IMG/VR virus record: IMGVR_UViG_3300029319_000001
DNA from: a virus
Lineage: Duplodnaviria; Caudoviricetes
Strand: one strand, 5' to 3'
DNA: 64,000 nucleotides
How positions within the stretch are numbered: position 1 is the stretch's first letter; the number at the start of each line of letters is the position of its first letter. Under the pieces are notes generated by a model that was given only the letters and a program-made list of their open reading frames with translations, had not been told where the DNA came from and made no database searches. Below are positions 12,130 through 12,278 of this stretch, piece after piece. The position numbers were made by a program, and so were the translations under genes.

Positions 12130-12222
12130 CCACCTACACCACAAAATAGTGGCATTTATCAAGCACTTGTCTGATGTAAAATCCTAGGTCTCAGACTACA
12201 TGATGTAAGACCACTTAAAACT

Positions 12223-12278
12223 GACAGTTAAAAAACTGTCACAAGAGACCTAACAGGTCTCTTTTTTTATGTCATAAT
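12223..12278 (+). promoter_or_regulatory. Box C (perfect inverted repeat) plus extended -10
   Basis: TGACAGTT-AAAA-AACTGTCA at 12222-12241; TGT-CATAAT with -10 at 12273-12278. Confidence 0.7.
12244..12268 (+). terminator. Intrinsic terminator embedded in promoter C
   Basis: AGAGACCT-AAC-AGGTCTCT followed by a T run. Confidence 0.75.

What the first reader, a model, noticed from the sequence alone, without database searches (positions are those of the whole stretch)
12169..12268. Terminator/antiterminator switch downstream of the ncRNA
Seen: the terminator 5' arm GAGACCTA (12245-12252) is the exact complement of TAGGTCTC (12185-12192), so an 8-bp antiterminator can form. That segment can alternatively pair with AGACC (12208-12212), partly in GTCTGA/TCAGAC (12169-12174/12191-12196), or with GAGACC inside the ncRNA (12000-12005). 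TGATGTAA occurs twice (12172, 12201). Inference: a riboswitch- or attenuator-like platform that controls read-through from the ncRNA into the early cluster.
Basis: partly seen in the sequence, partly recalled or inferred. Interest (0 to 1): 0.62.

Follow-up and report, generated by a model that had tools for sequence, protein, structure and literature searches.

The report
Cyanophage RNA terminator with competing helix
The flagged stretch is the stop signal that ends a small non-coding RNA of a marine cyanobacterial virus; it sits inside a stop-then-restart cassette, and a real upstream complementary segment could compete with it, but nothing shows that this works as a regulated switch.

Summary
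Every sequence fact in the finding is correct. The window is a T4-like cyanomyovirus. 12243-12263 plus the T-run is a strong intrinsic terminator. TAGGTCTC (12185-92) is an exact 8-nt complement of its 5' arm. That is rare by chance: 0.26% of shuffles, and 0 of 36 other cyanophage terminator-like sites. In the nearest relatives the pairing extends to 14 contiguous nt.

The switch reading is only partly supported:
- The upstream segment lies in an 84-90-nt, lineage-specific spacer found only in near-identical contigs, so covariation cannot be tested.
- The next relative (L013/L025) keeps the terminator with a compensatory C-G to T-A change but lacks the spacer.
- About 13 other lineages of the RNA family have no convincing terminator.
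- The proposed link to the ncRNA (12000-05) has predicted probability 0 and is broken in L022/L141, so it is not a riboswitch platform.
- The energy gap to the best non-terminator fold is only modestly unusual (3-20% of shuffles).
- The terminator sits between a repeated promoter box (12222-42) and a -10 element (12273-78), like the PeSL cassettes of T4-like phages. The downstream genes therefore appear to have their own promoter.

Best reading: a constitutive terminator in a stop/restart cassette. A regulated attenuator remains possible, at about 25%. The same stretch was noted once before in an overlapping window of this genome, not on other DNA.

The parts
11902..11957 (+). Promoter of the ncRNA: upstream box GACAATTTGTAAAGTGTACAC (11902-22), TTGCAA (11929-34), 17-nt spacer, TATATT (11952-57). 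The start near 11964 is inferred.
   Evidence: The same box-29 nt-TATATT geometry is seen in P-RSM4 and other loci.
11964..12131 (+). Conserved structured ncRNA core. The closing stem is GTCGAAACAAACCAAC / GTTGAGTTTTGTTTCGAC and the interior varies.
   Evidence: Searches found about 35 contigs. The inner stem shows TGCG/CGCA against AACG/CGTT compensatory changes. No Rfam or tRNA hit.
12132..12221 (+). Lineage-specific 3' spacer that carries all the competing segments. It is not unusually structured on its own.
   Evidence: No homologue outside near-identical contigs. Fold z-score -0.78.
12165..12174 (+). ACTTGT (12165-70; ACCTGT in relatives) can pair with ACAGGT 12253-58. GTCTGA (12169-74) can pair with TCAGAC 12191-96.
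12185..12196 (+). Pivot segment TAGGTCTCAGAC. It pairs either with 12169-74, with AGACC 12208-12, or with the terminator 5' arm 12245-52 (the antiterminator).
12208..12212 (+). AGACC, partner of GGTCT 12187-91. This is a weak hairpin of -5.1 kcal/mol.
12222..12242 (+). Palindromic promoter box (TGACAGTT-AAAA-AACTGTCA). It is one of eight similar boxes lying 28-30 nt upstream of a -10 hexamer. As RNA it folds into an 8-bp hairpin of -8.4 kcal/mol.
12243..12268 (+). Intrinsic terminator: 9-bp stem AAGAGACCT/AGGTCTCTT, loop AAC, then a run of seven T at 12262-68.
   Evidence: L013/L025 have AAGAGACTT/AAGTCTCTT, a compensatory C-G to T-A change.
12270..12278 (+). Extended -10 element TGTCATAAT of the downstream promoter. 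A start near 12285 is inferred.
   Evidence: The element is kept in L013/L025 in front of a different first gene.
12300..12533 (+). First downstream ORF (77 aa, phrog_17964, function unknown).

Best explanation
12243-12268 is a Rho-independent terminator. It ends the ncRNA transcript, giving an RNA of about 300 nt from a start near 11964.

It is the middle part of a composite stop/restart cassette made of three elements: a promoter box (12222-42), the terminator hairpin with its T-run, and an extended -10 element (12270-78). This cassette insulates the strongly conserved ncRNA unit and restarts transcription near 12285 for the small genes of unknown function that follow.

The upstream complementary segments (12165-70 and 12185-92) are real and can form a competing helix. 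They lie in a young, lineage-specific spacer and have no identifiable sensor. By the folding model, the pivot segment is captured first by weak local hairpins, so the default outcome is termination. At most the competing helix makes the terminator somewhat leaky.

Shown: the anatomy, the statistics, the comparison with relatives and the repeated cassette geometry. Inferred: promoter and terminator activity, the transcript ends and the kinetic order.
For: Terminator:
- Found by the scan and folds at -11.1 kcal/mol.
- Compensatory change in L013/L025, which have no upstream complement (5 nt at most).

Cassette:
- Eight boxes lie 28-30 nt upstream of TATAAT-like hexamers. Three of them (12223, 15527, 19569) have a terminator in the gap.
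- The same geometry is seen in MbCM1.
- The other cassettes have no upstream complement.
- L013/L025 differ from the window by indels on both sides of the cassette: the spacer, and the genes at 12300-12691. PeSL cassettes are reported to promote such indels (PMC2839356, PMC4122927).

No link to the ncRNA:
- Pairing with 12000-05 has probability 0 and is not kept in L022/L141.
- The spacer is unstructured.
- Only two of about 15 downstream contexts have a convincing terminator.

Equilibrium and kinetics:
- The terminator fold is favoured by 5-6 kcal/mol in the window, and P(antiterminator) is 3e-5.
- Estimated barriers from the pre-formed local hairpins to the antiterminator are 8-12 kcal/mol.
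Against: - The 8-nt complement is an outlier (p about 0.003; 0 of 36 other sites).
- It extends into all three loop bases of the terminator. Simple duplication of the hairpin arms would not give that.
- In relatives the alternative fold is only 1.8-3.6 kcal/mol above the MFE.
- The nascent RNA ending at 12254-58 prefers the antiterminator at P 0.95-0.99.
- Once formed, the estimated barrier back to the terminator is about 11.6 kcal/mol.
- The intergenic region is better conserved (98.7% or more) than the flanking ORFs (92-97%) among relatives. The spacer may therefore be under constraint, although mosaic recombination could give the same pattern.
Confidence: 0.6

Rival explanations
1. A regulated transcription attenuator. 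The pivot TAGGTCTCAGAC is normally held by GTCTGA or AGACC (anti-antiterminators), so the terminator forms. When a trans factor occupies those partners, the pivot plus ACYTGT pair with 12245-58 and RNA polymerase from the ncRNA promoter reads into the downstream genes. The same would happen if the polymerase pauses before 12258. A candidate factor is something that binds the twin UGAUGUAA motifs, which overlap both partners.
For: - Three-way mutually exclusive helices, with AGAC/GTCT word enrichment unique in the window.
- Rarity of the 8-mer complement.
- A 14-nt contiguous complement in relatives, strengthened by the T-to-C difference at 12167.
- High predicted barriers both ways, so the first structure formed would decide the outcome.
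- In most other lineages the ncRNA and the next gene form one transcription unit, so restoring read-through could matter.
Against: - No sensor has been identified.
- There is no covariation: the six haplotypes differ at four sites, all outside the arms, which is not significant.
- The segment is absent in L013/L025, which keep the terminator.
- The downstream genes have their own promoter.
- The energy measure is only modestly unusual.
- TGATGTAA is enriched genome-wide.
Confidence: 0.25
2. A relic without function. The upstream segments are a decayed tandem copy of the terminator hairpin, or scars of recombination between cassettes. They are complementary to the live terminator by descent.
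For: - AGGTCTC is a direct repeat of the 3' arm, and ACCT of the 5' arm. They stand in the order that a tandem duplication would give.
- Cassettes of this kind are reported to recombine (PMC2839356).
- The spacer is confined to one narrow clade.
Against: - The similarity between the copies does not extend beyond the 7-mer.
- Three extra pairs reach into the terminator loop, which descent does not explain. This is roughly a 2-5% coincidence; that figure is my own estimate.
- The spacer is more conserved than the flanking genes.
Confidence: 0.12
3. A riboswitch. The conserved ncRNA core is a ligand-binding aptamer and 12169-12268 is its terminator/antiterminator expression platform.
For: - The core has near-invariant internal-loop bases and co-varying stems.
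- In most lineages it lies directly upstream of an ORF.
Against: - The switching strand does not overlap the core: 55 nt separate them.
- Pairing of 12185-92 with 12000-05 has predicted probability 0 and is broken in L022/L141.
- About 13 of 15 downstream contexts have no convincing terminator, and the ORFs that follow are unrelated to one another.
- No Rfam riboswitch model matches.
Confidence: 0.03

Closest known systems
PeSL (promoter-early stem-loop) cassettes of T4-like phages (Arbiol et al. 2010, PMC2839356; Comeau et al. 2014, PMC4122927)
   Same: - A composite intergenic module in a region of small ORFs of unknown function.
- A stem-loop that ends upstream transcription is placed between the upstream promoter element and the -10.
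- The module is repeated along the genome and associated with indels between close relatives.
   Different: - A 21-nt pseudo-palindromic box at a fixed 28-30 nt from the -10 replaces a clear -35.
- The host is a cyanobacterium.
- PeSLs were described in phages of enterobacteria and vibrios. A paper on cyanophage S-PM2 found few of them (PMC4503421).
- No PeSL is described with an upstream antiterminator.
Classical transcription attenuators (trp and pyrBI leaders; protein-controlled leaders such as TRAP, PyrR, LicT, HutP). This comparison is from general knowledge.
   Same: Mutually exclusive anti-antiterminator, antiterminator and terminator helices upstream of a U-tract.
   Different: - There is no leader peptide; only AUG-UAA start-stop pairs lie inside the TGATGTAA repeats.
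- No known protein-binding repeat is present, and there is no conservation beyond one clade.
- The element follows a non-coding RNA rather than preceding a biosynthetic operon.
Terminator-type riboswitch expression platforms
   Same: A terminator whose 5' arm has an alternative upstream partner.
   Different: - The alternative partner is not shared with the aptamer's closing stem.
- The platform is absent from most members of the RNA family.

Membership tests
Rho-independent (intrinsic) terminator | G+C-containing stem-loop followed immediately by a U-tract | tested here: met
   9-bp stem with 4 G-C pairs, 3-nt loop, -11.1 kcal/mol, seven T at 12262-68.
Rho-independent (intrinsic) terminator | Stem kept by compensatory change in relatives | tested here: met
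   L013/L025 have C-G changed to T-A at the eighth pair and keep the T-run.
Rho-independent (intrinsic) terminator | Transcripts end there | not testable with these tools
PeSL-type promoter/terminator cassette | Promoter elements and a terminator stem-loop in one intergenic module, with the stem-loop between the upstream element and the -10 | tested here: met
   Box 12222-42, hairpin 12243-63, TGTCATAAT 12270-78. The same layout occurs at 15527 and 19569 and in MbCM1.
PeSL-type promoter/terminator cassette | Repeated along a hyperplastic region and associated with indels between close relatives | tested here: met
   Six + strand boxes with 2 mismatches or fewer lie between 6.9 and 18.6 kb, and two weaker boxes at 13746 and 19569 (3 mismatches) bring the total to eight. 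L013/L025 lack 12132-12221 and 12300-12691 next to the cassette.
PeSL-type promoter/terminator cassette | Sigma-70-type -35 and -10 with measured promoter and terminator activity | tested here: inconclusive
   The -10 is present, but no good -35: a box stands further upstream instead. Activity cannot be tested here.
Transcription attenuator | Mutually exclusive antiterminator and terminator helices | tested here: met
   12185-92 pairs with 12245-52 (duplex -11.2 kcal/mol), and this excludes the terminator stem.
Transcription attenuator | Antiterminator able to compete energetically or kinetically | tested here: inconclusive
   It lies 5.1, 3.6 and 1.8 kcal/mol above the MFE in the three haplotypes. 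P is 0.99 in nascent RNA, but estimated barriers are 8-12 kcal/mol both into and out of it.
Transcription attenuator | Alternative pairing conserved or co-varying in relatives | tested here: inconclusive
   Identical in the near-identical contigs L004/6, L009, L022, L141 and L143. Absent in L013/L025.
Transcription attenuator | A sensor (leader peptide, protein or RNA binding site) | tested here: not met
   None was recognised. The spacer is unstructured, there is no Rfam match and no ORF of 30 aa or more.
Riboswitch | Expression platform shares a strand with the aptamer, so that ligand binding decides the fold | tested here: not met
   There is a 55-nt gap. Pairing with 12000-05 has P 0.0 and is broken in L022/L141.
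Riboswitch | Aptamer and platform co-occur across the family | tested here: not met
   Only two of about 15 downstream contexts have a convincing terminator.

The most novel reading that the evidence does not exclude
A phage-borne, factor- or pause-dependent transcription attenuator placed behind an abundant cyanophage non-coding RNA. The pivot segment 12185-96 toggles between two weak local hairpins and a 14-bp bipartite antiterminator. This decides whether the ncRNA promoter also feeds the downstream gene cluster across a stop/restart cassette.
Probability: 0.2. Interest if true: 0.55.

Novelty: new member of a known kind. Interest (0 to 1): 0.3.

Why it matters
The terminator shows that this widespread cyanophage RNA can be made as a free-standing transcript. 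In two lineages it is cut off from any ORF. In most others the first ORF starts 16-38 nt after it. This bears on whether the RNA acts in cis or in trans.

The box-terminator-(-10) module also extends the PeSL idea of mobile stop/restart cassettes to marine cyanomyoviruses.

If the competing helix proved to be regulated, it would be a rare example of attenuation control in a T4-like phage. The present evidence does not establish that.

Tried and rejected
- **Rfam and tRNA.** Rfam at gathering and at E<=10 gave nothing relevant. The weak SraG, STnc and AaHKsRNA82 rows only match the terminator hairpin. ARAGORN found nothing.
- **Search for diverged copies of the 3' module.** The phage collection, an IMG/VR scan with CTGTCACAAGAGAC (117 mostly chance hits, filtered), a gapped metagenome scan and local blastn returned only near-identical copies.
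- **Pairing of 12185-92 with GAGACC 12000-05.** Rejected.
- **Riboswitch reading.** Rejected (see the membership test).
- **NtcA or CRP identity for the box.** Considered from memory and not pursued because the spacing does not fit.
- **RegA-type or ribosome 'start-stop' binding to UGAUGUAA.** Considered only as speculation, since TGATGTAA is enriched genome-wide.
- **Papers.** The Syn9 transcriptome paper (Doron et al. 2016) is not held.
- One search used the wrong box spacer (corrected). One search used the wrong constraint direction (corrected).
- **Kinetics.** A full stochastic co-transcriptional simulation was judged too slow for the script machine. Findpath barriers were used instead; they are upper bounds and exclude pseudoknotted intermediates.

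Full report
**What the window is.** The region matches T4-like cyanomyoviruses (Kyanoviridae): P-SSM3, P-SSM4, P-RSM4, S-TIM4 and metaG-MbCM1. The window's own assembly is not held. The nearest record, G001 (locus L004), is 92% identical over 11600-12700. The stretch lies in a run of small + strand ORFs of unknown function upstream of an SF2 helicase at 13827-15101.

**Checking the observation.**
- The scan finds the terminator AAGAGACCT-AAC-AGGTCTCTT followed by Ts at 12243-63. It folds at -11.1 kcal/mol.
- The duplex TAGGTCTC:GAGACCTA is worth -11.2 kcal/mol.
- An exact complement of 8 nt or more in the 107 nt upstream arises in 0.26% of dinucleotide shuffles and in 0.03% of windows of this sequence. 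TAGGTCTC is unique in the 64 kb.
- Of 38 distinct terminator-like sites in related cyanophage loci, only copies of this one have 7 nt or more. Four other box-terminator cassettes have 4-5 nt.
- AGAC/GTCT words occur six times in 12165-12265 against 0.56 expected, the highest count in the window.
- I also found that the pairing is longer than reported. 12245-12258 pairs contiguously with 12185-92 and with 12165-70. This is perfect in the five related haplotypes that carry C at 12167, and has one U-G pair in the window.
- A broader energy measure is less striking. The best fold that excludes the terminator lies 5.1 (window), 3.6 (L009) or 1.8 (L004) kcal/mol above the MFE. Shuffled upstream sequence gives 7.4 +/- 2.5, so 3-20% of shuffles do as well.

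**Surroundings: the ncRNA.**
- 11964-12131 is a structured RNA with its own promoter (TTGCAA-17-TATATT).
- Its 5' and 3' ends are almost invariant in about 35 viral and metagenomic contigs. Its interior varies, and an inner stem shows compensatory changes.
- It has no Rfam match.
- Earlier notes of this scan reached the same view of the RNA (e1-5342209, e1-5342217). I checked the family membership and stems only in part.

**Surroundings: what follows the core differs by lineage.**
- In most lineages an ORF starts 16-38 nt after the closing stem, with no terminator.
- Only the window type and the L013/L025 type have a convincing terminator before the first ORF.
- The window-type segment 12132-12221 occurs only in near-identical contigs: L004/L006, L009 and L022 from IMG/VR, and L141 and L143 from the metagenome scan.
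- These differ from the window at four sites, none in a paired arm, which is not significant. Covariation therefore cannot be tested.
- L013/L025 are 91-98% identical in the flanking genes. They go from the core through about 7 nt straight into the box, a homologous terminator with one compensatory pair (C-G to T-A), and the same TGTCATAAT. They lack the spacer, and hence the antiterminator; their longest upstream complement is 5 nt.

**The cassette.**
- I had seen that TGACAGTT...ACTGTCACA recurs just upstream of the ncRNA promoter in other phages, and that a -10-like CATAAT follows the terminator.
- Earlier notes (e1-5342219, e1-5342220) gave coordinates for eight such boxes. I verified them.
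- All eight lie 28-30 nt upstream of a TATAAT-like hexamer.
- Six match GACAGTT-N5-AGTGTC with 2 mismatches or fewer, all on the + strand between 6.9 and 18.6 kb.
- Only the box at 12222-41 is a perfect palindrome. The box therefore looks like a DNA site, not a conserved RNA hairpin.
- At 12223, 15527 and 19569, and in MbCM1, an intrinsic terminator fills the gap between box and -10.
- This is the architecture described for PeSL cassettes of T4-like phages. There the stem-loop, often between -35 and -10, ends upstream transcription, and the cassettes promote indels of neighbouring ORFs (PMC2839356 and PMC4122927). The differences between the window and L013/L025 on both sides of the cassette fit that behaviour.
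- The downstream genes thus appear to have their own promoter.

**Is there a switch?** Arguments for:
- the rarity of the complement;
- its extension into all three loop bases of the terminator;
- a predicted probability of 0.95-0.99 for the antiterminator in nascent RNA ending at 12252-58;
- an estimated barrier of about 11.6 kcal/mol from antiterminator to terminator;
- better conservation of the intergenic region (98.7% or more) than of the flanking ORFs (92-97%).

Arguments against:
- At full length the terminator fold wins (P about 0.95, against 3e-5 for the antiterminator).
- Before the 5' arm appears, the pivot is already in GTCTGA/TCAGAC (P about 0.68) or GGTCT/AGACC (P about 0.24). 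The estimated barriers from these to the antiterminator are 8-12 kcal/mol, so the model predicts termination by default. These barriers are upper bounds and ignore pseudoknotted intermediates.
- The spacer alone is not unusually structured (z -0.78).
- No sensor is recognisable.
- The proposed contact with GAGACC 12000-05 has probability 0.0 and is lost in L022/L141.
- The sister lineage does without the element.

**Verdict.**
- The terminator and its cassette context are well supported.
- The competing helix is real and probably not a pure coincidence.
- Whether it is a regulator (about 25%), a relic of hairpin duplication or cassette recombination (about 12%), or a constitutive modifier of terminator strength cannot be decided from sequence.
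- A riboswitch platform tied to the ncRNA core is very unlikely (about 3%).
- Transcript-end mapping and in vitro transcription with compensatory mutants would settle it.

Noticed in passing
window 6896, 11902, 12223, 13746, 15527, 17463, 18591, 19569: A 21-nt pseudo-palindromic box (consensus GACAGTT-N5-AGTGTCNAC) lies 28-30 nt upstream of a TATAAT-like hexamer at eight + strand intergenic sites. The same box precedes the ncRNA promoter in P-RSM4, MbCM1 and many IMG/VR contigs. It is probably a protein-binding promoter element.
   Followed up: partly
L004/L006, L022, L141, L143 versus window 12006-12007: The relatives carry a 51-52-nt insertion of two small hairpins inside the variable part of the ncRNA core. 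The window and L009 lack it. L013/L025 carry a related insert.
   Followed up: partly
L005, L017, L019, L020 downstream of the core; window 12028-36 and 12203-12: A short motif TGTAAG(A/T)CC(C), resembling the core's own 3' end GACCCAYC, recurs at the ends of extra modules between the core and the next ORF in several lineages. It often lies about 20 nt before the ATG. In L019 the flanks GACCCATCAC are repeated on both sides of such a module. No explanation was found.
   Followed up: partly
L013/L025 versus window 12300-12691: The two small ORFs at 12300-12533 and 12530-12691 are missing. The cassette is joined directly to the homologue of ORF 12705-12956. This is an indel bounded by the cassette.
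   Followed up: partly
window 10800-13700 versus L004, L009, L022, L143: Identity is mosaic. For example, ORF 12530-12691 is 100% identical to L009 and L143 but 92% to L004, which points to frequent recombination among these phages.
   Followed up: no
L002 (JN371769.1) 2857-3120, minus strand: In metaG-MbCM1 the ncRNA lies under a minus-strand CDS annotated 'helicase' (AFD02903.1), between other short 'helicase' fragments. This is probably an annotation artefact.
   Followed up: no
window 8117-10813: Two tandem ORFs match tryptophan-halogenase families. The first matches strongly (Pfam E 5.7e-27) and the second weakly (E 1.2e-3, below the Pfam cut-off).
   Followed up: no
whole window: TGATGTAA occurs 17 times on both strands against 6.5 expected from shuffles.
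   Followed up: no
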